Origin: an archaeon
GTDB lineage: Archaea; Methanobacteriota; Methanobacteria; Methanobacteriales; Methanobacteriaceae
DNA length: 14,859 bases
Assembly (NCBI GenBank): GCA_024409145.1
Contig: JAKSUF010000010.1
Span: 1-14,859, forward strand
Reading direction: 5' to 3'
Shown: positions 4,801-13,440 of the stretch, piece by piece
Position numbering within the stretch: position 1 is the stretch's first letter
How the letters are laid out: each line of letters opens with the position of its first letter
Position numbers and translations under genes: made by a program
Notes under the pieces: generated by a model
Seen by the model: the letters and a program-made list of their open reading frames with translations, nothing else
The model's database searches: none
Told to the model about the DNA's origin: nothing

Positions 4801-5503
4801 GAATAACTGGGATACAATCCATAATCATCCATTCAGGTTTATTATCAGATGTGTAGAATGCATTTAATACATCTAATCTCTTTAATAATCTATCACGTTT
4901 TTGTCCTTGAGCACCTTCAAGTTCTTCTTTAATTTCTTTAATGTCTTTTTCAAGATCTACATTTTTAAGTAATTCCTTGATTGCTTCAGCACCCATTCCT
5001 ACTTTAAAATCATTACCATATTTTTCATAATATGTACGATAATCTTTTTCAGAAAGAGTTTGTTTATTTTCTAGAGGAGTATTTCCTTTGTCAATTACAA
5101 CGTAACTAACAAAGTATAATACTTCTTCTAGATCTCTTGGAGACATATCTAGAACTAATCCCATTCTAGATGGAACACCTTTAAAGTACCAAATATGTGA
5201 TACAGGTGAAGCTAATTCAATATGTCCCATTCTTTCACGTCTTACTTTAGATCTAGTAACTTCAACACCACATCTATCGCAAACTACGTTTTTATATCTT
5301 ACTCTTTTATATTTACCACAAGCACATTCAAAGTCCTTAGTTGGTCCAAATATTTTTTCACAGAATAATCCATCTCTCTCAGGTCTTAGTGTTCTATAGT
5401 TAATTGTTTCTGAACGTTTAACTTCACCATAACTCCAAGAACGAATCTTTTCTGGAGATGCAATTCCTATTTTTAAAGCGTCAAACTTATTTACTTCTAT
5501 CAT
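1856..5503 (-). CDS. rpoC: DNA-directed RNA polymerase subunit beta' (1215 aa)
   Basis: N-terminal Zn finger CxCGKYx..CDRCG. Catalytic [14 protein letters not shown] motif. C-terminal Zn site [13 protein letters not shown]. Length and collinearity are typical of Firmicute beta'. The ATG overlaps the rpoB stop (TAATG). The SD GGAGG is encoded by the last rpoB codons. Confidence 0.97.
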
Positions 5504-8500
5504 TAGAAATTACCTCCTTCTTCAATATCAATATCTTCATCATCTAATTCATCAAGATCATTATCTTCAAATTCGTCTTCATCGTCTTCTTCCCAATCAG
5601 AATCTTCTTCATCTTCAGCAATTGGTGGAAGAGGTGTAGTTTCATCTAATCCTAAATTTAGATCTTCTTTATCTTCTTCTTCTTCAATTTGTTTTAAGTC
5701 GAATTCTTCTCCGTCGTCATTTTGGATCTTTAAGTCTAAGCCTAAAGCTTGTAATTCTTTCATTAATACTCTAAATGATTCAGGAACACCTGCTCTATTA
5801 ACATCTTGACCCTTAATAATTGATTCATATACTTTTACACGACCAACAACATCATCTGATTTAACAGTTAAGATTTCTTGTAATACATGAGAAGCACCAT
5901 AAGCATATAATGCCCAAACTTCCATTTCACCAAATCTTTGACCACCAAATTGAGCTTTTCCTCCTAGAGGTTGTTGTGTAACTAATGAATAAGGTCCAGT
6001 TGAACGAGCATGTAATTTATCATCAACCATGTGGTGTAATTTAATCATATACATAACACCAACTGATACTCTATTTTCGAATGGTTCACCAGTACGTCCA
6101 TTATATAATACTGTCTTACCATCAGCTTCCATTCCTGCTTCTTTCATCATAGCAGCAATATCTTCAGATGAAGCACCATCAAATACTGGAGTAGCAACAT
6201 GAACGCCTAATTTCTTAGCAGCCATACCTAAGTGTAATTCCAAAATTTGTCCTATGTTCATACGAGAAGGAACACCCATTGGATTTAACATGATATCAAC
6301 TGGTCTACCATCAGGCATGTATGGCATATCTTCTTGAGGTAAAATCAATGAAATAACACCTTTGTTACCATGACGTCCTGACATCTTATCACCAACTTGA
6401 ATCTTACGTTTTTGAACTATATAAATTCTAATAACCTTAGATACACCTGTAGGTAATTCATCATTGTCTTTTCTTGAATATATCTTAACATCGTGAACAA
6501 TACCATCACCACCGTGTGGAACACGTAATGAAGTATCACGAACTTCTCTTGTTTTTTCTCCAAAGATAGCATGTAATAATTTTTCTTCTGAAGTTAATTC
6601 AGCCATACCTTTTGGTGTAACTTTACCAACTAAGATATCTCCTTCTTTAACTTCTGTACCGATCATTACAATACCATTTTCATCTAAGTTCTTACGAGCT
6701 TCTTCAGAAACATTTGGAATATCTCTTGTAATTTCTTCAGGTCCTAACTTAGTATCACGACATTGCATTTGATAATCTTCTAAGTGTAATGAAGTATATG
6801 CATCATCTTTAACTAAATTTTCATTTAAGATAACAGCATCCTCATAGTTATATCCATTAAATGTCATGAATGCAACAGTTAAGTTCTTACCTAATGCTAA
6901 TTCACCTTTATCTGTAGATGGACCATCAGCAATAACTTGTCCACGTTTTACAGAATCACCAACTCTAACAATTGGTCTATGATGTTGGCAAGTACCAGCA
7001 TTTGATAATTCGAAATTACATAAATTATATGTATCTTTTCCTCCAACATTTGCAATAACAATCTTACGTGCATCAACATAGTCAACAACACCATCAGATT
7101 TACTAGTTATTACAGCACCAGAGTCTTTAGCAGCAACACATTCAACACCAGTACCAATGAATGGAGCTTCAGCTCTTAATAATGGTACAGATTGACGTTG
7201 CATGTTAGCACCCATTGATGCACGAGTAGCATCATCATGTTCTAGGAATGGGATACAACTTGTTGTAACAGCAACAACTTGTTGTGGTGAAACATCAACA
7301 TAATCAACTTGATTAGCTTTTGCAATAATATTTTCACCTTTATAACGACAATTTACTAATTCTGGAACGATAACATCTTTATCATCAGTTTCAATAGTAG
7401 CTTGTGAAATATAATAATCTTCTTCTTCATCAGCAGTTAAGTATTCAACATCATCTGTTAACTTACGATCAACTACTTTTCTATATGGAGTCATAACGAA
7501 ACCATATTCATCAACTTTAGCATAAGAAGCTAAAGATGTAATTAAACCTATATTTTGACCTTCTGGTGACTCAATAGGACAAATTCTACCATAGTGAGAT
7601 GCATTAACATCACGTACATCTACACCAGCTCTATCTCTAGATAATCCACCTGGACCTAAAGCTGATAAACGACGTTTATTAGTTAATTCTGCTAATGGGT
7701 TAGTTTGATCCATGAATTGTGATAATTGAGATGAACCAAAGAATTCTTTCATAGCAGCAGTAACTGGTCTAATATTAATTAATGTCTTAGGAGTAACTTC
7801 ATCCATTTCTTGAGTAGTCATTCTTTCACGAATAACTCTTTCCATACGAGCAACACCAATTCTAAATTGATTTTGTAATAATTCACCAACTTGACGAATT
7901 CTTCTGTTACCTAAATGGTCAATTTCATCAATATTTCCAACACCATGTAATAAGTTTAGATAATAACTTACTGAAGCATAGAAATCAGAAATAGTTAATC
8001 TCTTAACATCTATATTATAATCATTACCAATAACTAGTAATTTTTCTTTCTTATTTTCTGGATTGTAAATCTTAACTGTTTGAACTTTTCCATAAATATC
8101 TAATTCTTCATTAATCTTTACATTCTCTAAATTATATCCTTCATTAAAGATTTTCTTTAAGTCTTCTAAAATTTCTTTAGTAACAACTGTATCTTTAGGA
8201 TATTTTACTTCTTTATTAACTTTAATATCTTCAGCTAAAGTTTGTCCTAATAATCTATCACAAACATTTAACTTTCTATTAAATTTATAACGACCTACTT
8301 TAGCTAAATCATAACGGAATTCATCAAAGAATCTTGTAATTAATTGGTTCTTAGATGAATCTAGTGTACTAGGTTCTCCTGGTCTTAATTTTTCATAAAT
8401 TTCAATTAAAGCTTCATCTGTATTTCTAGTAGAATCTTTAGCAATAGTATTTTCTAGATATACATCTTTACCAAATACTTCATAGATTTCTTCATCACTA

Positions 8501-9105
8501 GATAAACCAAATGCTCTTAATAATGTAGTTAATGTAACTTTTCTATTTCTATCAATTCTTACATATAATACATCTCTAGCATCTGTTTCGAATTCCAACC
8601 AAGTTCCACGAGTTGGAATAATTTGAGAAGTGATAACATTTCTTCCATTTTTATCTATTTCACGATTAAAATAGACACTTGGACTTCTTACCAACTGACT
8701 TACTATAACACGCTCAGCGCCATTAATAATAAATGTTCCACTTTCTGTCATTACTGGTAAGTCACCCATGAAAATTTCTTGTTCTTTAACTTCACCAGTT
8801 TCATGATTATATAGTCTTACATCGACCTTTAAAGGAGCAGAAAATGTTGATTCTCTATCTTTAGCTTCTTTAATAGAATAACGAGGTTCATCAAAATGAT
8901 AATCTCCTACTTCTAAAGATAAAGTACCAGAAAAATTCTCTACTGGGAATAAATCATCGAATACTTCTTTAATTCCTGTATCAACGAACCATTGATAACT
9001 CTTTTTTTGAATTTCAAGCAAATCTTTCAATTCATAAGTCTTTCTAATTCTTGAGAAAGATCTTCTTTTGCGGTAATCACCACAATTAACAAGCTTATAA
9101 GCCAT
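5503..9105 (-). CDS. rpoB: DNA-directed RNA polymerase subunit beta; start revised to the second ATG, 1200 aa
   Basis: The track ORF is 5503..9123. The sequence is unmistakably RpoB (..RKRRSFSRI.., ..[13 protein letters not shown].., ..GHGNKGV..). The first ATG lacks an SD. The ATG at 9105..9103 ([17 protein letters not shown], the canonical RpoB N-terminus) is preceded by GGGGTGA plus a 4-nt spacer. A ~70-aa acidic extension follows the conserved ..[21 protein letters not shown] end. Confidence 0.96.
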
Positions 9106-9174
9106 AAATTCACCCCAATACACAATAATAATTTTAACTATCGTTTTAATTTGTCTAAAACGTTGCCAATTTAT

Positions 9175-9204
9175 ATTATTAGCACAAATTTTTTATCAAG
9201 TCAA
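9175..9204 (-). promoter_or_regulatory. Candidate sigma-A promoter for rpoBC (-35 TTGACT, 18 nt, -10 AATAAT)
   Basis: Minus strand: TTGACT (9204..9199), directly after the methyltransferase TAA, then an 18-nt spacer and AATAAT (9180..9175). This leaves a ~65-nt leader to the rpoB start. The -10 assignment is ambiguous in an A/T-rich context. Confidence 0.4.
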
Positions 9205-9206
9205 TA

Positions 9207-9785
9207 TTATTTCAAAGAAATAATGAAAAAACCTTTTTCCTTATCAATTAACTCAACTTTATAGTATTTTTCCATGTCTCTCATTAAAGATTTAGCACCT
9301 TGTTTTTCTCTTACAACGATTATCATTTCACCGTCTTCTTTAAGGTGATCTTTTGAGTTAATAAGTAACTCATATAATTTCTCTTTTCCAACTCTAATTG
9401 GTGGATTAGAAAAAATATAATCATACTTTTCATCTAACAATTCAAATCCATCAGAAACAAGTGCATTAACATTAAACTTATTTTCTTTTGAATTCATTTT
9501 AGTTAAATGAATAGCTCTCCTATTAACATCAACCATGGTAGTATCTACATTAAAAATTTTGCCAACTATTATACCAATCGGACCATATCCACATCCTAAA
9601 TCTAGAATGTTTCCTTTAATATTTTTCTTAAGAATATTTTTAATTAATAAGTAAGTTCCAAAATCTAATTCAGCTTTACTAAATACACCATTATCTGTAT
9701 TAAAAGAAAACATATATCCGTTAAAACCAACATTAAATTTAACAATCTTACTCTCTAAATTTTCATTTGTAAAATAATGTCCCAT
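9207..9785 (-). CDS. Class I SAM-dependent methyltransferase, MTS/RsmC-like 'small methyltransferase' domain (YbxB-like), 192 aa
   Basis: Motif I ILDLGCGYGPIGI and motif IV IFSNPPIR. N-terminal HYFTNEN...FNTDNGVFSKAELDFGT is typical of the MTS domain. A ybxB methyltransferase immediately upstream of rpoB is conserved in Bacillus-type genomes. The start is moved from the track ATG (9848) to ATG 9785..9783 (MGHYFTNEN), which is preceded by GGAGG. The upstream 21 codons are a terminator hairpin with no SD. Confidence 0.85.
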   Translation of the reverse strand: MGHYFTNENLESKIVKFNVGFNGYMFSFNTDNGVFSKAELDFGTYLLIKNILKKNIKGNILDLGCGYGPIGIIVGKIFNVDTTMVDVNRRAIHLTKMNSKENKFNVNALVSDGFELLDEKYDYIFSNPPIRVGKEKLYELLINSKDHLKEDGEMIIVVREKQGAKSLMRDMEKYYKVELIDKEKGFFIISLK

Positions 9786-9793
9786 ATTCCTCC

Positions 9794-9845
9794 AAAAAAA
9801 ATAAAAGGAGTAACTACTTTGAAAACAAAATATAGTTACTCCTTT
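9794..9845 (-). terminator. Strong rho-independent terminator ending the three-gene operon; it abuts the methyltransferase SD
   Basis: Minus strand: AAAGGAGTAACTA (9845..9833), a 16-nt loop, TAGTTACTCCTTT (9816..9804), a 10-bp perfect core extendable to 13 bp. This is followed by TATTTTTTTT (9803..9794), then immediately GGAGG (9793..9789) and ATG 9785. Confidence 0.8.
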
Positions 9846-9894
9846 CATAATTTACTTATTCTATACTCAAACTATCTAAATTTCAAGTATTTTA

Positions 9895-10194
9895 TTAAAA
9901 TTCTATTAAATCCAATGTATTAACATCATAATTTAATGATTTAACTATTGAATCTATTTCATATTCTTCAAATACTCTTTCTAATTCAGCTCTAGTTCTA
10001 AAGAATATACCAATTTGATTAATAAATAAATCTCTCAAAGTATCTAATGTAATTCCTAATTCTAATAAGTATTCTACAATACTAATAACATTTCTTTTAT
10101 TAAGAACAATATTATTAATTACATTAGTACAATTATTATTTACTATTTCATCAACTTCGTCTTTTTTTAAATTATATTGTAACAAGAATTCCAT
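9895..10194 (-). CDS. Hypothetical small acidic protein (99 aa), third gene of the coupled operon
   Basis: Intact ORF. Its ATG lies 1 nt after the TAA of the upstream 746-aa gene (TAAtATG). The SD GGAGG is encoded by the upstream gene's terminal Gly-Gly-Lys codons, with an 8-nt spacer. No motif recognised and no TM segment. Confidence 0.6.
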   Translation of the reverse strand: MEFLLQYNLKKDEVDEIVNNNCTNVINNIVLNKRNVISIVEYLLELGITLDTLRDLFINQIGIFFRTRAELERVFEEYEIDSIVKSLNYDVNTLDLIEF

Positions 10195-10195
10195 A

Positions 10196-12436
10196 TTACT
10201 TTCCTCCTAAAGAATTAGCAAAAGCTTTTATTCTTTCATATTCTTCTTGAGTCATAATAGTGTTATAACATAATGCAAACAATAATGCCTTTTGTGCATC
10301 AACACCATTGCTAGATAATATATTATAAATTCTTACTACTTTATTTCTAGAAATATTTAGTTTTTCAACTGAATATCTATTACCCTTTTGATATTTATCT
10401 AATTTCTTAATTAAGAAATCTTCATCTTTATTATAAGAACGATTATTTCTAATTAACTTCTTATATTCTTCAACTTCTTCTGGTTTAATATCATCAAAGT
10501 TATTATCGAAGAATGATCTCTTATAATCATCAGGCATGTTGATTACATCAACTTTTAGATTACTAATTTCACCAGCAATTGATTTTTCTTTTGAACCAAA
10601 AATCTTTTTACCATTTTCAGAACAATATCTTAATCTCTTAATAGTTTCATCAGTAACACAATTTAATTTATTTGGATACATTTCAATAATATCCATACCA
10701 TCAAATACTTTTCCAGTTCCACCCTTCATTGTATCTTTATAAACAGATTCAACAAAGTAATCTAATTTTTCTTCTAAGTATGGTAAGCATAATAAGTATT
10801 TAGCATTCTTATCAGTTATGTTGAAATTATAATCTTTACATAAATTAATATTTCCTAAAACCATATCATGGTTATAAATAAATACTTCTTTACTAAAATC
10901 AAATAAATTAATTAAATCTATCTTTAATTCTCTAAATGATGCAATATTTTCTTTAAAATCATTAAAGTTTCCATCTTTAGTAATAAAGATTGATGGTAAT
11001 GAACCTACACAAGATATTAATATCTCTTGCATGTCTTCTTTATCTACAGATAAATCTTTTTCAACTATTTCTACAGCTTCTTTTAGATTATCTATATTAT
11101 TATCTTTAATTAAAGCAAGAACTAATTCAGTATTCTTAACAAATGTATTTAATAAATCATTATCTTTTAAATAATCTAATACATTCTTACATGCATCTAA
11201 AGTTAATGAATTATAATCTTCATCATCTATTTCTTTAGTTTTAACATGATAATCACCTAACATCTTTTTAATTTCTTTTATTTCTTCTTCGTTGTTAGGA
11301 GTTTCTTCTTTAACTTCTTCTTTTGGTTCCTCTTTTGGTTCTTCCTTAGGTTCCTCTTTAGGTTCTTCTTTTACTTCTTCTTTATTCTCTTCTTTAGTTT
11401 CTTCTTTTTCAACTAAATCTTTGAAATCTTCATCAACTTTATTTTCTTCAGGTTTTTCCTCAGGAAGTTTAATATCTACTGGACTTGGAATATCAACAGT
11501 AGCAACTTCTTCTTCAGTGTCATCATGTGGAACACCTAATTCATAACTTGGAATTGCATCCAATGCCATATTAGCTTCTGGAATTACTATATTATCATTT
11601 CCATAAGGAATATCTTCTTCTTCAGTAGTTTCCTCTACAGGTTTTTCTTCCTCTTTTGGTTCTTCTTCAACTGGAGGATTATTTATAGCTTCCATATCTA
11701 AATTATTTATATCAACTTGATTTTCATCAATTTGAATTGGTTTAGATAAATCAAAGTCATCTTCTTCTTTTTCTTCTTCTTCATCTTCATTATCTAATTT
11801 ATATAATTTCTTAATATCATATACTTCAGAATTATATTTTAACAGATAACAAACTAAATCATATTTCTTTTCTGCTTCACAGTTACTAAAATCAATTGCA
11901 GTTAATACATCTTCTATATTAGTAACATAATCATTATCATTTAATCTAGCAATTAAACGATTATAACTTTCTTTCCATTCATTCAATCTACTAATATCAT
12001 CACATTCAAGATCATTCTTTGCCATTTCTATTCCTTCAGCAATAGCAAGATTTTCTGTTCTCTTATCATTAATAGCATTAACAAATTTAATTAATGTATC
12101 AGATTGAACATCAGTAAGTGATAAAGAAATACCATTATTAATACCACTAATTAAATATAATAAGCCTTCATAAGTACATCCTGGCTTAGTAAAGTTATCT
12201 TTAATAGCTTGTGGTAACTCAGATAAAATCTTTTCAAATCTTTCTTTATCTAATGTATCAAATTTAAAAATATTATATTCTTTTTCATTATCTTTGAAAA
12301 TATTTAAAATATCTTCATAATATTTAATATTTTCACGTTCAACATCTAGGCTTTTAAACATTTTTTCTAAAGCTTCAATATTATCAATAATAAATTTTAA
12401 TCTAACATTTAATATCTTAAGTAATTCTTCTTTCAT
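10196..12436 (-). CDS. Hypothetical 746-aa protein: N-terminal domain (~1-210), ~190-aa highly acidic low-complexity linker with EE-x-K repeats, and a C-terminal domain (~430-746)
   Basis: Long intact ORF. The SD AAGGAGG sits 9 nt upstream and the ATG 2 nt after the orf305 TAA. No signal peptide or TM segment. No catalytic motif recognised; KGGTGKV is not a canonical Walker A. The composition is E/K/D/N-rich. Confidence 0.75.
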   Translation of the reverse strand: MKEELLKILNVRLKFIIDNIEALEKMFKSLDVERENIKYYEDILNIFKDNEKEYNIFKFDTLDKERFEKILSELPQAIKDNFTKPGCTYEGLLYLISGINNGISLSLTDVQSDTLIKFVNAINDKRTENLAIAEGIEMAKNDLECDDISRLNEWKESYNRLIARLNDNDYVTNIEDVLTAIDFSNCEAEKKYDLVCYLLKYNSEVYDIKKLYKLDNEDEEEEKEEDDFDLSKPIQIDENQVDINNLDMEAINNPPVEEEPKEEEKPVEETTEEEDIPYGNDNIVIPEANMALDAIPSYELGVPHDDTEEEVATVDIPSPVDIKLPEEKPEENKVDEDFKDLVEKEETKEENKEEVKEEPKEEPKEEPKEEPKEEVKEETPNNEEEIKEIKKMLGDYHVKTKEIDDEDYNSLTLDACKNVLDYLKDNDLLNTFVKNTELVLALIKDNNIDNLKEAVEIVEKDLSVDKEDMQEILISCVGSLPSIFITKDGNFNDFKENIASFRELKIDLINLFDFSKEVFIYNHDMVLGNINLCKDYNFNITDKNAKYLLCLPYLEEKLDYFVESVYKDTMKGGTGKVFDGMDIIEMYPNKLNCVTDETIKRLRYCSENGKKIFGSKEKSIAGEISNLKVDVINMPDDYKRSFFDNNFDDIKPEEVEEYKKLIRNNRSYNKDEDFLIKKLDKYQKGNRYSVEKLNISRNKVVRIYNILSSNGVDAQKALLFALCYNTIMTQEEYERIKAFANSLGGK
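11309..11404 (-). repeat. In-frame 12-bp tandem array (8 imperfect units) encoding EETK EENK EEVK EEPKx4 EEVK inside the 746-aa ORF
   Basis: Plus-strand units follow ttt[t/a][g/a/t][g/c/t]ttc[c/t]tc with period 12, e.g. ttttggttcctc / ttttggttcttc / cttaggttcctc / tttaggttcttc. Synonymous variation between units suggests the array is old rather than a recent slippage product. Confidence 0.6.
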
Positions 12437-12438
12437 AA

Positions 12439-13356
12439 TTAAAAGCCTCCTTTCACTAATTCAACGACTCTCTTAATATCAGGATTATCTATATCCTTAG
12501 TTTCTATATATTCAATATCTTCAAACTCTTTAAAGTATTTATATAGAGTTCCATAATCCTTAGCATTATTTGCTTCTTTCATTAATCTTAATAGATAAAT
12601 CTTTTTAACAAGTATGATATTTCTTACATTTATTTTTTCAAGAACTCTCTCTTCAACAAGATCATCTATTCTCATAGTTATATCTAACTTCTTACCAATC
12701 TTTTCATATATTGGTTCATAAGCAGGATTTAACAAGTTTTTATTTCTATCAATAGTATTTTGAATCTTTTCTAACTCATCATCTTTTTTCTTTTCACTCT
12801 TAATACCAGAGTTAGTTTTATAATATTCTAAGTTACTATTTAATAAATATAATACCAAGCCTGTTTTGTCTTCTAAGCTAATAGAATCAAACTTTCTTAA
12901 GAATTCAATAAATTCATCAACATCCTCTATTTGTTTCTTATATCTAAATATGTTGTAGTACTTTTTACATATAGTCTTATATTCATAAGTTCTTTCCATA
13001 TCTACAACTTCTATTTTTAATTCATCAGCTCTTCTATTAAAATGATTAATAATGTTGTTAAAATAATTAAATGCATTTTGAAATTGAGGTAAGTTTTTAA
13101 TAGAATCATTATTTGATTTAACTAAATATAAATTAGCTTTATATTCTTGTTCATTTGAAGCTACATGTTCTAGATTATTAATAATAAATTGTTGATTACT
13201 AAATTTCTCTATATTTGCAGGATCATTGTCTACACACGACAAAAAAGATAGTATGCTATTATTCTCATAGATTAAAGTATCTAATATATTTTTAGCGCTA
13301 TCTATATCTTTTATTATTGGTTCTAAATAACTTAACATTTCGTCTACGTATTTCAT
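12439..13356 (-). CDS. Hypothetical 305-aa protein, first gene of the coupled operon
   Basis: Intact ORF with a weak SD (AAGGG). The promoter lies just upstream. No TM segment and no recognisable motif. Its C-terminal ..KGGF codons form the SD of the next gene. Confidence 0.7.
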   Translation of the reverse strand: MKYVDEMLSYLEPIIKDIDSAKNILDTLIYENNSILSFLSCVDNDPANIEKFSNQQFIINNLEHVASNEQEYKANLYLVKSNNDSIKNLPQFQNAFNYFNNIINHFNRRADELKIEVVDMERTYEYKTICKKYYNIFRYKKQIEDVDEFIEFLRKFDSISLEDKTGLVLYLLNSNLEYYKTNSGIKSEKKKDDELEKIQNTIDRNKNLLNPAYEPIYEKIGKKLDITMRIDDLVEERVLEKINVRNIILVKKIYLLRLMKEANNAKDYGTLYKYFKEFEDIEYIETKDIDNPDIKRVVELVKGGF

Positions 13357-13380
13357 TCTACCAACCCTTATTCTACAATA

Positions 13381-13409
13381 ATGATACCATAAATAAATTT
13401 AAATAACAA
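13381..13409 (-). promoter_or_regulatory. Candidate promoter of the orf305-orf746-orf99 operon (-35 TTGTTA, 17 nt, extended -10 TGgTATCAT)
   Basis: Minus strand: TTGTTA (13409..13404), a 17-nt spacer, then TGGTATCAT with the -10 at 13386..13381. It sits directly downstream of the SPFH-gene terminator and ~25 nt upstream of the orf305 ATG. Confidence 0.45.
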
Positions 13410-13410
13410 C

Positions 13411-13440
13411 AAAAAAAGACTAATTTTTTTAGTCTTTTTT
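13411..13440. terminator. Bidirectional rho-independent terminator overlapping the SPFH stop codon
   Basis: AAAAAAGACTAA-ttttt-TTAGTCTTTTTT. A perfect 12-bp stem carries A-run and T-run flanks on both strands. The SPFH-gene TAA (13429-13431) lies inside the hairpin. Confidence 0.75.

What the first reader, a model, noticed from the sequence alone, without database searches (positions are those of the whole stretch)
9895..13409. Self-contained, translationally coupled three-gene operon of unrecognisable proteins embedded in the conserved rpoBC neighbourhood
The three ORFs are orf305, orf746 and orf99. They have their own promoter (13381-13409) and are flanked by strong terminators on both sides (13411-13440 and 9794-9845). 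They are coupled with 2-nt and 1-nt intergenic gaps, and each downstream SD is embedded in the upstream gene's last codons, which implies fixed stoichiometry. None of the three proteins shows a motif I can assign to a known family. All three are predicted cytoplasmic. The cassette sits where low-GC Gram-positives normally carry nusG-rplKAJL upstream of ybxB-rpoB. Codon usage matches its neighbours, so it is not an obviously recent insertion. It could be a lineage-specific complex of unknown function, for example a cytoskeletal, regulatory or defence-type module.
Basis: partly seen in the sequence, partly recalled or inferred. Interest (0 to 1): 0.7.

Follow-up and report, generated by a model that had tools for sequence, protein, structure and literature searches.

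The report
Bacterial three-gene operon with mTERF-fold proteins
Three tightly coupled genes next to the RNA polymerase genes of an uncultured gut/rumen Firmicute form a real, conserved and unannotated operon; two of its proteins are predicted to adopt the helical-repeat fold of mitochondrial transcription termination factors (mTERF), which has been reported only once in bacteria, and its function is still unknown.

Summary
orf305, orf746 and orf99 (minus strand, 12439-13356, 10196-12436, 9895-10194) are separated by 2 nt and 1 nt. A GGAGG sits inside the last codons of each upstream gene. They have a conserved TG-extended sigma-70-type promoter and are flanked by hairpin plus T-run terminators. 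The trio is conserved as a unit in all nine related loci examined in full and in three of four much more distant loci.

Adjacency to rpoBC holds only in the close clade. Distant trios sit in unrelated neighbourhoods.

Best reading: a soluble, acidic A-B-C complex of mTERF-type repeats acting as a nucleic-acid or gene-expression adaptor. Only the fold and the co-conservation are shown; the function is inferred. It is a new variant of a known kind and moderately interesting.

The parts
13381..13409 (-). Promoter of the trio: -35 TTGTTA (13409-13404), 17-nt spacer, TG-extended -10 TATCAT (13386-13381)
   Evidence: Consensus scan. The same TTGnnn, 17 nt, TGnTAnnAT arrangement sits at the same distance from geneA in 8 related loci.
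13357..13372 (-). Conserved short 5' leader and ribosome-binding region of orf305 (AATAAGGGTTGGTAGA; AATAAGGGATGGTA in relatives)
   Evidence: Sequence; conserved in 8 related loci.
12439..13356 (-). geneA (orf305): acidic helical protein. The ~185-aa core is a paralog of the orf746 N-domain; residues ~186-305 are a variable extension. Fastest-evolving of the three (25-34% identity to relatives).
   Evidence: hhalign of the geneA core against the B N-domain: P = 1.8e-4 over 170 columns. The geneA HMM hits the N-domains of B homologs P0112 (E 9e-6) and P0218 (E 2e-6). Identities.
11801..12436 (-). geneB (orf746) N-terminal domain, residues 1-212: long-helix, coiled-coil-like bundle, net charge -13
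   Evidence: AlphaFold2 pLDDT about 90. Coiled-coil structural hits (RecN, SMC, dynein stalk, prefoldin, GCN4 fusions). Retained in distant homologs.
11294..11800 (-). geneB disordered polyanionic linker, residues 213-381: 29% E, with D, K and P at 11% each; PEEK-type repeats; net charge -49
   Evidence: pLDDT below 50. Composition and charge. Across the close family the length is 127-249 aa and the net charge -39 to -87. The linker is short or absent in most distant homologs of 550-690 aa.
10196..11293 (-). geneB C-terminal domain, residues 382-746, plus stop codon. Residues 382-564 form helix-helix-short-helix triplets (mTERF-like solenoid, net charge -18). Residues 565-746 form a mixed alpha/beta plus helical subdomain (net charge +5) with the conserved basic motifs TIKRLRYxSENGKKxFGSK and NxSxNKVxRxYNxL.
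9895..10194 (-). geneC (orf99): 99-aa acidic (pI 4.3) protein of three mTERF-type motifs (nine short helices). Most conserved of the three; the C-terminal third FDEYEIDSIVKSLNYDVNTxDLIEF is nearly invariant.
9794..9845 (-). Hairpin (GAAAGGAGTAACTA...TAGTTACTCCTTT) plus T8. It terminates the trio operon and is also the first structured element of the ybxB-rpoBC leader.
   Evidence: The surrounding region folds at -28.3 kcal/mol, z -4.3. The stem is conserved in 9 loci, with 2 of 13 pairs showing compensatory changes and several G-C to G-U changes. The motif is unique to this junction.
13411..13440 (-). Upstream boundary: hairpin plus T-run terminator of the SPFH gene, overlapping its stop codon
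   Evidence: -11.4 kcal/mol, z -4.2; sequence.

Best explanation
The three ORFs are a genuine, vertically inherited operon of uncultured low-GC Bacillota from gut and rumen. It encodes a soluble, strongly acidic hetero-oligomer.

Parts:
- GeneC (orf99) is a minimal three-repeat protein with the mTERF fold.
- GeneB (orf746) joins a coiled-coil-like N-domain, through a polyanionic disordered linker, to a C-domain. The C-domain is made of mTERF-like helix triplets followed by a near-neutral subdomain that carries the family's conserved basic motifs.
- GeneA (orf305) is a paralog of the geneB N-domain.

Proposed mechanism (inferred, not shown):
- A pairs with B through the paralogous helical domains.
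- C docks onto or extends the B solenoid in a fixed 1:1 ratio set by translational coupling.
- The composite mTERF-type surface, above all the conserved basic patch in B residues 565-746, binds a nucleic acid or a basic component of the gene-expression machinery, as organellar mTERFs do with DNA, rRNA and the NSUN4 methyltransferase.
- The acidic linker acts as a flexible spacer or nucleic-acid mimic.

The position next to ybxB-rpoBC is a clade-specific accident of gene order, not a defining feature.
For: Shown:
- Operon anatomy.
- Conserved promoter and junctions across 9 loci; the B-C gap is always -1 or +1 nt.
- The trio is syntenic in every close-clade locus examined in full (window, L001, L003, L005-L011), and in the contig of P0039, which was listed without DNA. 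The short contig L017 keeps B-C-MTS.
- B and C remain adjacent and overlapping in 3 of 4 distant loci in unrelated contexts. Homology there is confirmed: C' E about 1e-14, B' C-domain 1e-18 to 1e-25.
- The weak but recurrent Pfam mTERF signal appears in 28 of 46 family members, best E 6.5e-4.
- A-to-B N-domain paralogy.
- No TM segments; GC3 like the neighbours.
- No phage, plasmid or defence-library matches.

Inferred: complex formation, from coupling, co-conservation and the near-invariant C-terminal third of geneC; and ligand binding, from the only non-acidic and motif-rich subdomain.
Against: - No interaction, binding or expression data exist.
- All three proteins are acidic overall (orf99 pI 4.3; B net charge about -75), unlike nucleic-acid-binding mTERFs, which to my knowledge are basic.
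- Sequence-level membership in mTERF fails: Pfam 12.9 bits against a 23.1-bit cutoff, and MTERF3 in the PDB only at E 0.13-0.27. orf99 also has no proline, so it lacks the conserved motif proline (read from the sequence; criterion as quoted in PMC11417379).
- No internal repeats are detectable by profile self-comparison.
- No B-C fusion protein was found that would prove the complex.
- One distant locus (L014) has A and B but no C gene was called after B.
Confidence: 0.4

Rival explanations
1. A purely structural or scaffolding complex with no nucleic-acid role. Coiled-coil domains (A and the B N-domain) would oligomerise, the solenoid parts would act as protein-protein interaction modules, and the acidic disordered linker would act as an entropic spacer or hub. 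One example would be a morphogenetic or sporulation-associated scaffold in endospore-forming Bacillota.
For: - All parts are acidic.
- The N-domains resemble coiled coils.
- The proteins evolve fast (A 25-34%, B 35-45% identity, against 87-89% for RpoB/C), as is common for structural and coat proteins (general knowledge).
- Sporulation or germination genes lie near the trio in several independent contexts: a CwlJ/SleB-like Hydrolase_2 gene divergent from geneA in 6 close loci, gpr-spoIIP in L012, Coat_F in L014, and PRC-barrel genes in L015 and L016, with a sigma-factor gene beside the one in L016.
Against: - The promoter looks like a vegetative sigma-70 type with a TG-extended -10, not a sporulation-sigma type (inference from consensus).
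- Sporulation genes are frequent enough in spore-former genomes that one within 8 kb is expected by chance.
- The best structural matches for both B and C are nucleic-acid or ribosome-associated mTERFs.
- Conserved basic motifs sit in the B C-terminal subdomain.
Confidence: 0.28
2. A lineage-specific RNA polymerase accessory or termination/antitermination factor. The mTERF-like complex would act on RNAP, or on the conserved promoter-plus-hairpin leader that lies between geneC and ybxB-rpoBC, tuning rpoBC expression. This would parallel organellar mTERFs, which terminate transcription at defined sites.
For: - The trio is immediately upstream of (ybxB-)rpoB-rpoC in all first-tier relatives whose contigs reach that far.
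- The hairpin has a conserved sequence, not just a conserved structure, and is preceded by a conserved -35/-10 pair. The motif is unique to this junction.
- mTERF fold.
- The acidic linker is reminiscent of the polyanionic tail of the Firmicute RNAP delta subunit (general knowledge). RpoB itself carries a -36 acidic tail in this clade.
Against: - In second-tier relatives the same module is not near rpoBC and their terminators are unrelated.
- The trio has its own promoter and terminator.
- Acidic proteins are poor candidates for direct DNA or RNA binding.
- No delta (HARE-HTH) or other RNAP-factor domain was detected.
Confidence: 0.12
3. A cofactor of the adjacent RsmC/RlmG-like (MTS, YbxB-type) rRNA methyltransferase, analogous to the MTERF4-NSUN4 complex that targets an rRNA methyltransferase to the mitoribosomal large subunit.
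For: - geneC is directly followed by an MTS methyltransferase gene in the window and in most first-tier loci: L003, L006, L008-L011 and L017 by ORF or gene lists, and the contig of P0039, where a 305-aa gene intervenes.
Against: - L001 and L007 have no MTS gene between geneC and rpoB.
- No MTS gene is near the distant trios.
- A promoter and a terminator separate the trio from the MTS gene.
- ybxB lies upstream of rpoB in many Firmicutes that lack this trio (general knowledge of Bacillus gene order).
Confidence: 0.07
4. A mobile, defence or toxin-antitoxin-type cassette inserted next to rpoBC.
For: - It is a compact, self-contained three-gene cassette of unannotated, fast-evolving proteins.
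- By eye, some distant geneA versions have a beta-rich C-terminal extension that looked RelE/Gp49-like.
Against: - No PADLOC hit and only insignificant PHROGs hits.
- No tblastn match in 50,697 phage or 72,556 plasmid records.
- No Pfam support for a RelE-like domain.
- The chromosomal position is stable across a clade whose RpoB proteins are 87-89% identical to the window's, and GC3 equals that of the neighbours.
- No integrase, transposase or repeats flank it.
Confidence: 0.03

Closest known systems
Eukaryotic organellar mTERF family (MTERF1-4, plant mTERFs, ciliate mitoribosomal mS93; Pfam PF02536)
   Same: - Its nine helices fall into three helix-helix-short-helix triplets.
- The orf746 C-domain gives MTERF1, MTERF3, mS93 and MTERF4 among its best hits.
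- There is a faint recurrent Pfam mTERF signal across the orf99 family.
   Different: - It is bacterial and split over several polypeptides: a 99-aa three-repeat subunit plus a larger subunit.
- The proteins are strongly acidic rather than basic.
- Scores are below the Pfam threshold.
- orf99 has no conserved motif proline.
- It is combined with a coiled-coil domain, a polyanionic disordered linker and a paralogous partner protein, none of which is part of organellar mTERFs to my knowledge.
pTERF family (prokaryotic mTERF-like DNA-binding tandem-repeat proteins; NAR 2024, PMC11417379)
   Same: Both are bacterial proteins from Bacillota MAGs, and pTERF1 comes from the ruminant gut. Both have repeat units of three alpha-helices resembling the mTERF motif, and pTERF members have as few as 3 units.
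   Different: - pTERFs are single proteins with regular tandem 35-residue repeats. pTERF1 and pTERF2 bind specific dsDNA motifs, pTERF1 with a Kd of 1.87 nM.
- Here the repeats are degenerate: no internal repeat is detectable.
- The proteins here are acidic and belong to a three-gene module.
- Homology to pTERF1 (MBQ3414883.1) could not be tested because the sequences were not retrievable; the supplementary table is truncated.
MTERF4-NSUN4 (mTERF protein acting as a docking subunit for an rRNA methyltransferase)
   Same: An mTERF-fold protein is encoded next to an rRNA-type SAM methyltransferase (MTS/YbxB) in most close-clade loci, and there are structural matches to MTERF4.
   Different: The methyltransferase is of a different family (RsmC/RlmG-like rather than NSUN). 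It is absent from that position in L001 and L007 and from the distant loci, and it lies in a separate transcription unit.
RNAP delta subunit (RpoE) of Firmicutes
   Same: A cytoplasmic protein with a long polyanionic disordered region, encoded by a low-GC Gram-positive and here located next to rpoBC (the properties of delta are from general knowledge).
   Different: No HARE-HTH N-domain or any delta signature was detected. The acidic region is an internal linker, is variable in length, and is largely missing in distant homologs.

Membership tests
mTERF (PF02536) | Fold: tandem ~30-residue motifs of two alpha-helices plus a short (3-10) helix, forming a superhelical solenoid | tested here: met
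   [not shown]
mTERF (PF02536) | Sequence match to the family profile above Pfam's gathering score | tested here: not met
   orf99 scores 12.9 bits against a 23.1-bit cutoff (E 0.052). The best family member reaches E 6.5e-4, and 28 of 46 members give sub-threshold hits. The orf746 family gives no mTERF hit. PDB profile searches reach MTERF3 only at E 0.27 and 0.13.
mTERF (PF02536) | Conserved motif proline (position 8) and leucine-zipper-like hydrophobic heptads, as summarised in PMC11417379 | tested here: not met
   orf99 contains no proline at all (sequence). Distant C' proteins have a single FLP in the third motif. The hydrophobic periodicity is present but was not scored.
mTERF (PF02536) | Binds DNA or RNA through a basic solenoid surface | tested here: inconclusive
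   Net charges: orf99 -9 (pI 4.3), B residues 382-564 -18, B residues 565-746 +5 with conserved K/R motifs. Binding itself cannot be tested with these tools.
pTERF (prokaryotic mTERF-like tandem-repeat DNA binders) | Regular tandem ~35-residue repeats (3-11 units) detectable at sequence level | tested here: not met
   Profile self-comparison of the orf99 and B C-domain families finds no internal repeat (best E 0.085 and 0.18).
pTERF (prokaryotic mTERF-like tandem-repeat DNA binders) | Sequence homology to pTERF1 (MBQ3414883.1) or pTERF2 | not testable with these tools
   Only the accession could be retrieved. The supplementary table with the family was truncated when stored.
Anti-phage defence or toxin-antitoxin systems | Match to a known defence or TA protein model, or association with mobile elements | tested here: not met
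   PADLOC gives 0 hits. PHROGs gives only E >= 0.0034. There are no tblastn matches in the phage or plasmid collections, and no RelE-type Pfam hit in the geneA variants.
RNAP delta subunit (RpoE) | N-terminal HARE-HTH domain followed by a C-terminal acidic tail | tested here: not met
   No Pfam or NCBIfam hit. The acidic region is internal, not C-terminal.

The most novel reading that the evidence does not exclude
The trio would be a bacterial multi-subunit mTERF-type factor that acts in transcription, as organellar mTERFs do. One possibility is that it binds the conserved promoter-proximal hairpin between geneC and ybxB-rpoBC and sets termination or read-through into the RNA polymerase genes. 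The family would then represent a prokaryotic lineage of the mTERF fold relevant to the origin of organellar mTERFs.
Probability: 0.1. Interest if true: 0.85.

Novelty: new variant of a known kind. Interest (0 to 1): 0.6.

Why it matters
mTERF proteins are regarded as a eukaryotic, organelle-directed family. The only prokaryotic report I found is the pTERF family of single-chain DNA binders described in 2024 (PMC11417379).

This operon would add a second, architecturally different bacterial occurrence of the fold. It has a minimal three-repeat subunit, obligately paired with a larger subunit that also carries a coiled-coil domain and a polyanionic linker, plus a paralogous third subunit. The family has at least 223 representatives at 50% identity, all from uncultured gut and rumen Bacillota. 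None has a name, a Pfam domain or a solved structure.

Working out what it binds would annotate a conserved piece of 'dark matter' in abundant gut organisms. It could also show how mTERF-type solenoids are used outside organelles.

The case is a caution as well: strict adjacency to rpoBC throughout one clade disappears in more distant relatives, so gene neighbourhood alone would have misled.

Tried and rejected
- **Sequence libraries.** Pfam, NCBIfam, PADLOC and PHROGs on single sequences gave nothing significant.
- **PDB profile searches.** Profiles A1, A2, A5 and A6 gave only sub-threshold mTERF (E 0.13-0.27) and coiled-coil noise.
- **Family-wide Pfam votes.** These were useful only for orf99. 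The NAMPT_N hits in 14 of 35 orf746 relatives (best E 3.6e-4) are below the cutoff and I treated them as spurious.
- **Foldseek against the PDB** for orf746 gave no significant hit. **AFDB50** was unavailable.
- **Internal repeats.** Self-comparison with hhalign found none.
- **B-C fusions** ('Rosetta stone') were absent among the 277 proteins fetched by then.
- **RelE/Gp49-like extension.** My visual impression of such an extension in some distant geneA proteins has no Pfam support and was dropped.
- **Rfam.** The downstream hairpin gave only a sub-threshold stem-loop resemblance to a plastid psbA 3'UTR (38 bits against 55.8), which I dismissed.
- **pTERF comparison** was impossible for lack of sequences.
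- **Taxon names for the distant loci** could not be obtained.
- **Corynebacterium VaFE-repeat hit** (P0237) in the profile search is a repeat artefact.
- **Antisense ORFs** 10536-10742 (+) and 11292-11546 (+) are read as shadows of orf746. The second is the S/F-rich mirror image of the E/K-rich linker.

Full report
**1. The observation**

The window is a low-GC (22-35%) stretch in which every substantial ORF lies on the minus strand. The order is ung, an SPFH/slipin gene, orf305, orf746, orf99, a YbxB-type MTS methyltransferase, rpoB, rpoC, pgk and tpiA.

The junctions read directly from the sequence:
- orf305 stop at 12441-12439, a 2-nt gap, then orf746 ATG at 12436.
- orf746 stop at 10198-10196, a 1-nt gap, then orf99 ATG at 10194.
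- A GGAGG lies 9 nt upstream of each downstream ATG, inside the last codons of the upstream gene.

As a side-effect, the conserved C-terminal Gly-Gly of the A and B proteins is the Shine-Dalgarno sequence read as codons.

The proposed promoter (13409-13381: TTGTTA, 17 nt, TG-extended TATCAT) is one of many consensus matches in an AT-rich region (51 found against 47 expected). Unlike the rest, it is conserved in position and sequence upstream of geneA in eight related loci.

Both flanking hairpins fold far better than shuffled sequence (z about -4.2 and -4.3) and are followed by T-runs. The simple terminator scanner missed them.

None of the three proteins has a hydrophobic segment compatible with a membrane span, and their GC3 matches the neighbours.

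**2. Conservation**

orf746 has 40 relatives of 688-827 aa at 30-48% identity, none with a name or Pfam domain. orf99 has 64 relatives at 45-67% identity. orf305 found only itself in the word-based search. The gene upstream of every orf746 homolog, however, encodes a 183-434 aa protein that shares LPQY, KKYY-IF and EF--FL motifs with it.

The nine related loci examined in full come from uncultured Erysipelotrichaceae, Bacilli or 'Clostridia' MAGs of rumen and gut. All have the order SPFH, sometimes a CwlJ/SleB-like hydrolase on the other strand, then A-B-C, usually MTS, then rpoB-rpoC-pgk. The B-C junction is always -1 or +1 nt. A further contig, listed without DNA, has A-B-C, a 305-aa gene and then MTS.

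Identity of the window's proteins to their counterparts in those nine loci:

| Protein | Identity |
|---|---|
| RpoB/C | 87-89% |
| SPFH | 73-76% |
| MTS | 57-62% |
| C | 46-61% |
| B | 35-45% |
| A | 25-34% |

The module is therefore old, vertically inherited and fast-evolving.

**3. A wider family and the rpoBC question**

An exhaustive profile search with the B C-domain found 223 representatives. Thirty-six are close (E below 1e-30). A second tier scores around 1e-15 to 1e-6, mostly 550-690 aa, with the whole C-domain aligned and little or no acidic linker.

The most divergent first-tier member still has B-C-MTS. Second-tier members sit in unrelated places:
- L012/L013: between rpsT-gpr-spoIIP-DUF975 and ZnuA / RNase III / RNase J.
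- L015: near RNase HII, CvpA and thioredoxin.
- L016: between a glycosyltransferase gene and TspO / SNase / NUDIX.
- L014: near phospholipid synthesis genes and Coat_F.

In three of these four, a 94-102 aa gene overlaps the end of B and matches the orf99 profile full-length at E about 1e-14. An unannotated gene of 284-518 aa lies upstream of B: directly upstream in L012, L014 and L016, and separated from B by a 61-aa ORF in L015.

B plus C is thus the deeply conserved core and A is a positional partner. Adjacency to rpoBC is a property of one clade only.

There are no matches in phage or plasmid collections or in defence-system models.

**4. What the proteins are**

At sequence level there is a faint but consistent echo. 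Twenty-eight of 46 family members hit Pfam mTERF below threshold, best E 6.5e-4. MTERF3 appears at E 0.13-0.27 in PDB profile searches.

*A and the B N-domain.* The geneA core aligns end-to-end with the B N-domain (hhalign P = 1.8e-4). The geneA HMM independently hits the N-domains of two B homologs (E 9e-6 and 2e-6). A is therefore a paralog of that domain.

**5. Physical character**

Everything is acidic:

| Part | Net charge |
|---|---|
| orf99 (pI 4.3) | -9 |
| B N-domain (1-212) | -13 |
| B linker (213-381) | -49 (family -39 to -87) |
| B residues 382-564 | -18 |
| B residues 565-746 | +5 in the window; family median -1 |

The last subdomain carries the family's conserved basic motifs (TIKRLRYxSENGKKxFGSK, and NxSxNKVxRxYNxL, the latter retained in distant relatives). 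The C-terminal third of orf99 is almost invariant, as expected of an obligate interface.

**6. Mechanism**

*Shown:* a co-transcribable, translationally coupled, co-conserved gene set; the mTERF fold of C; a probable mTERF-like solenoid in B; and A-to-B N-domain paralogy.

*Inferred:* A and B pair through their helical domains. C docks on or extends the B solenoid at 1:1. The assembly binds a nucleic acid or a basic component of the gene-expression apparatus through the B C-terminal subdomain, with the acidic linker acting as a spacer or mimic. I give this about 0.4.

*Main rival (about 0.28):* a non-nucleic-acid scaffold. The overall acidity, the coiled coils, the fast evolution and the repeated proximity to sporulation or germination genes favour it. 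That proximity is expected by chance in spore-formers, however, and the promoter looks vegetative.

*RNAP-specific factor acting at the rpoBC leader (about 0.12):* attractive because of the conserved hairpin, but the distant loci undercut it.

*MTERF4-NSUN4-like methyltransferase cofactor (about 0.07) and defence or toxin-antitoxin cassette (about 0.03):* both unlikely.

**7. Comparison with what is known**

The module works like, or at least looks like, an mTERF protein, but it fails sequence-level membership: it scores below the Pfam cutoff and orf99 lacks the motif proline.

The only published prokaryotic mTERF-like family I found is pTERF (PMC11417379). These are single-chain proteins with regular 35-residue tandem repeats from Bacillota MAGs, pTERF1 from the ruminant gut, and pTERF1 and pTERF2 bind specific dsDNA motifs with nanomolar affinity. 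The present proteins have degenerate repeats, are acidic and are multi-subunit. Homology to pTERF could not be tested because its sequences were not retrievable.

I therefore class this as a new variant of a known kind.

**8. Verdict**

This is a real, conserved, unannotated operon. Its 'unrecognisable' proteins resolve to a bacterial mTERF-fold complex, and its genomic context is a clade-specific coincidence. Function remains unproven. Interest 0.6.

Noticed in passing
window 9786-9894 (- strand); also L001 10429-10545, L003 10646-10762, L005 ~4764, L006-L011 equivalents: The geneC-to-ybxB spacer is conserved as a unit in every close-clade locus. Right after the geneC stop comes a -35/-10 pair (window 9886-9858: TTGAAA, 17 nt, TAGAAT; the TTG and TAnAATA are invariant). 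Next comes a hairpin of conserved sequence, whose 5' arm is Shine-Dalgarno-like (AAAGGAG) and whose 3' arm is anti-SD-like (CUCCUUU), then a T-run and the real SD. A terminator placed just downstream of a promoter suggests a leader or attenuator for ybxB-rpoBC. L001 and L007 lack ybxB but keep the hairpin, followed by a ~180-nt leader before rpoB.
   Followed up: partly
window 9207-9848 (- strand): The mechanical ORF for the MTS/YbxB-type methyltransferase is over-extended by 21 codons. The true start is almost certainly the ATG at 9785-9783 (MGHYF...; homologs start MSHYF...), preceded by GGAGG at 9793-9789. The spurious extension is the terminator hairpin read as codons.
   Followed up: yes
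whole window: The window equals a 14,859-bp NCBI MAG contig whose proteins are labelled '[archaeon]' (e.g. MCQ2976555.1 slipin family protein; MJ232_00845). Separate bacterial-type rpoB and rpoC of about 1200 aa each, the ybxB-rpoBC order and the closest relatives (Erysipelotrichaceae/Bacilli MAGs) show that it is a bacterium of the Bacillota. The taxonomic label is wrong.
   Followed up: partly
window 5503-5730 (- strand), C-terminus of RpoB: RpoB ends in a ~75-residue polyacidic tail (net charge -36) finishing ...EEGGNF (EEGGEF in relatives). The tail is conserved across the clade. The rpoB stop overlaps the rpoC start at 5503, and the terminal E-G-G codons appear to encode the rpoC Shine-Dalgarno sequence, the same arrangement as in the trio.
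   Followed up: no
L003 6899-7327, L005 202-630, L006 2581-3009, L008 ~8881-9369, L009 190-618, L010 8523-8951 (all opposite strand to geneA): In six relatives a 142-aa CwlJ/SleB-like cell-wall hydrolase gene (Pfam Hydrolase_2) is transcribed divergently from geneA, between it and the SPFH gene. It is absent from the window, L001, L007 and L011. It hints that these organisms form endospores.
   Followed up: no
window 10536-10742 (+) and 11292-11546 (+): Two antisense ORFs (68 and 84 aa) lie inside orf746. The second is an S/F/L-rich low-complexity mirror of the E/K-rich linker. They are most likely non-coding shadows.
   Followed up: partly
L001 3272-3913, 4693-5325, 5421-6068; L007 4589-5266, 6007-6675: Upstream of the SPFH gene, these relatives carry two or three paralogous genes of about 210-225 aa with no Pfam hits on record for the three L001 genes (N-termini such as 'GLNPARAKQQIEELN' and 'GYNPSQSGKDIRNL'), interleaved with ung. 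This is another small unannotated family in the clade.
   Followed up: no
geneA across loci (window 12439-13356; L003, L006, L008, L009, L011 short forms; L005 434 aa): geneA comes in length classes: a ~185-aa core only (183-203 aa), the core plus a ~100-120 aa helical extension (283-305 aa, as in the window), and 434 aa in L005. In distant loci the positional equivalent is 284-518 aa and no longer detectable by HMM.
   Followed up: partly
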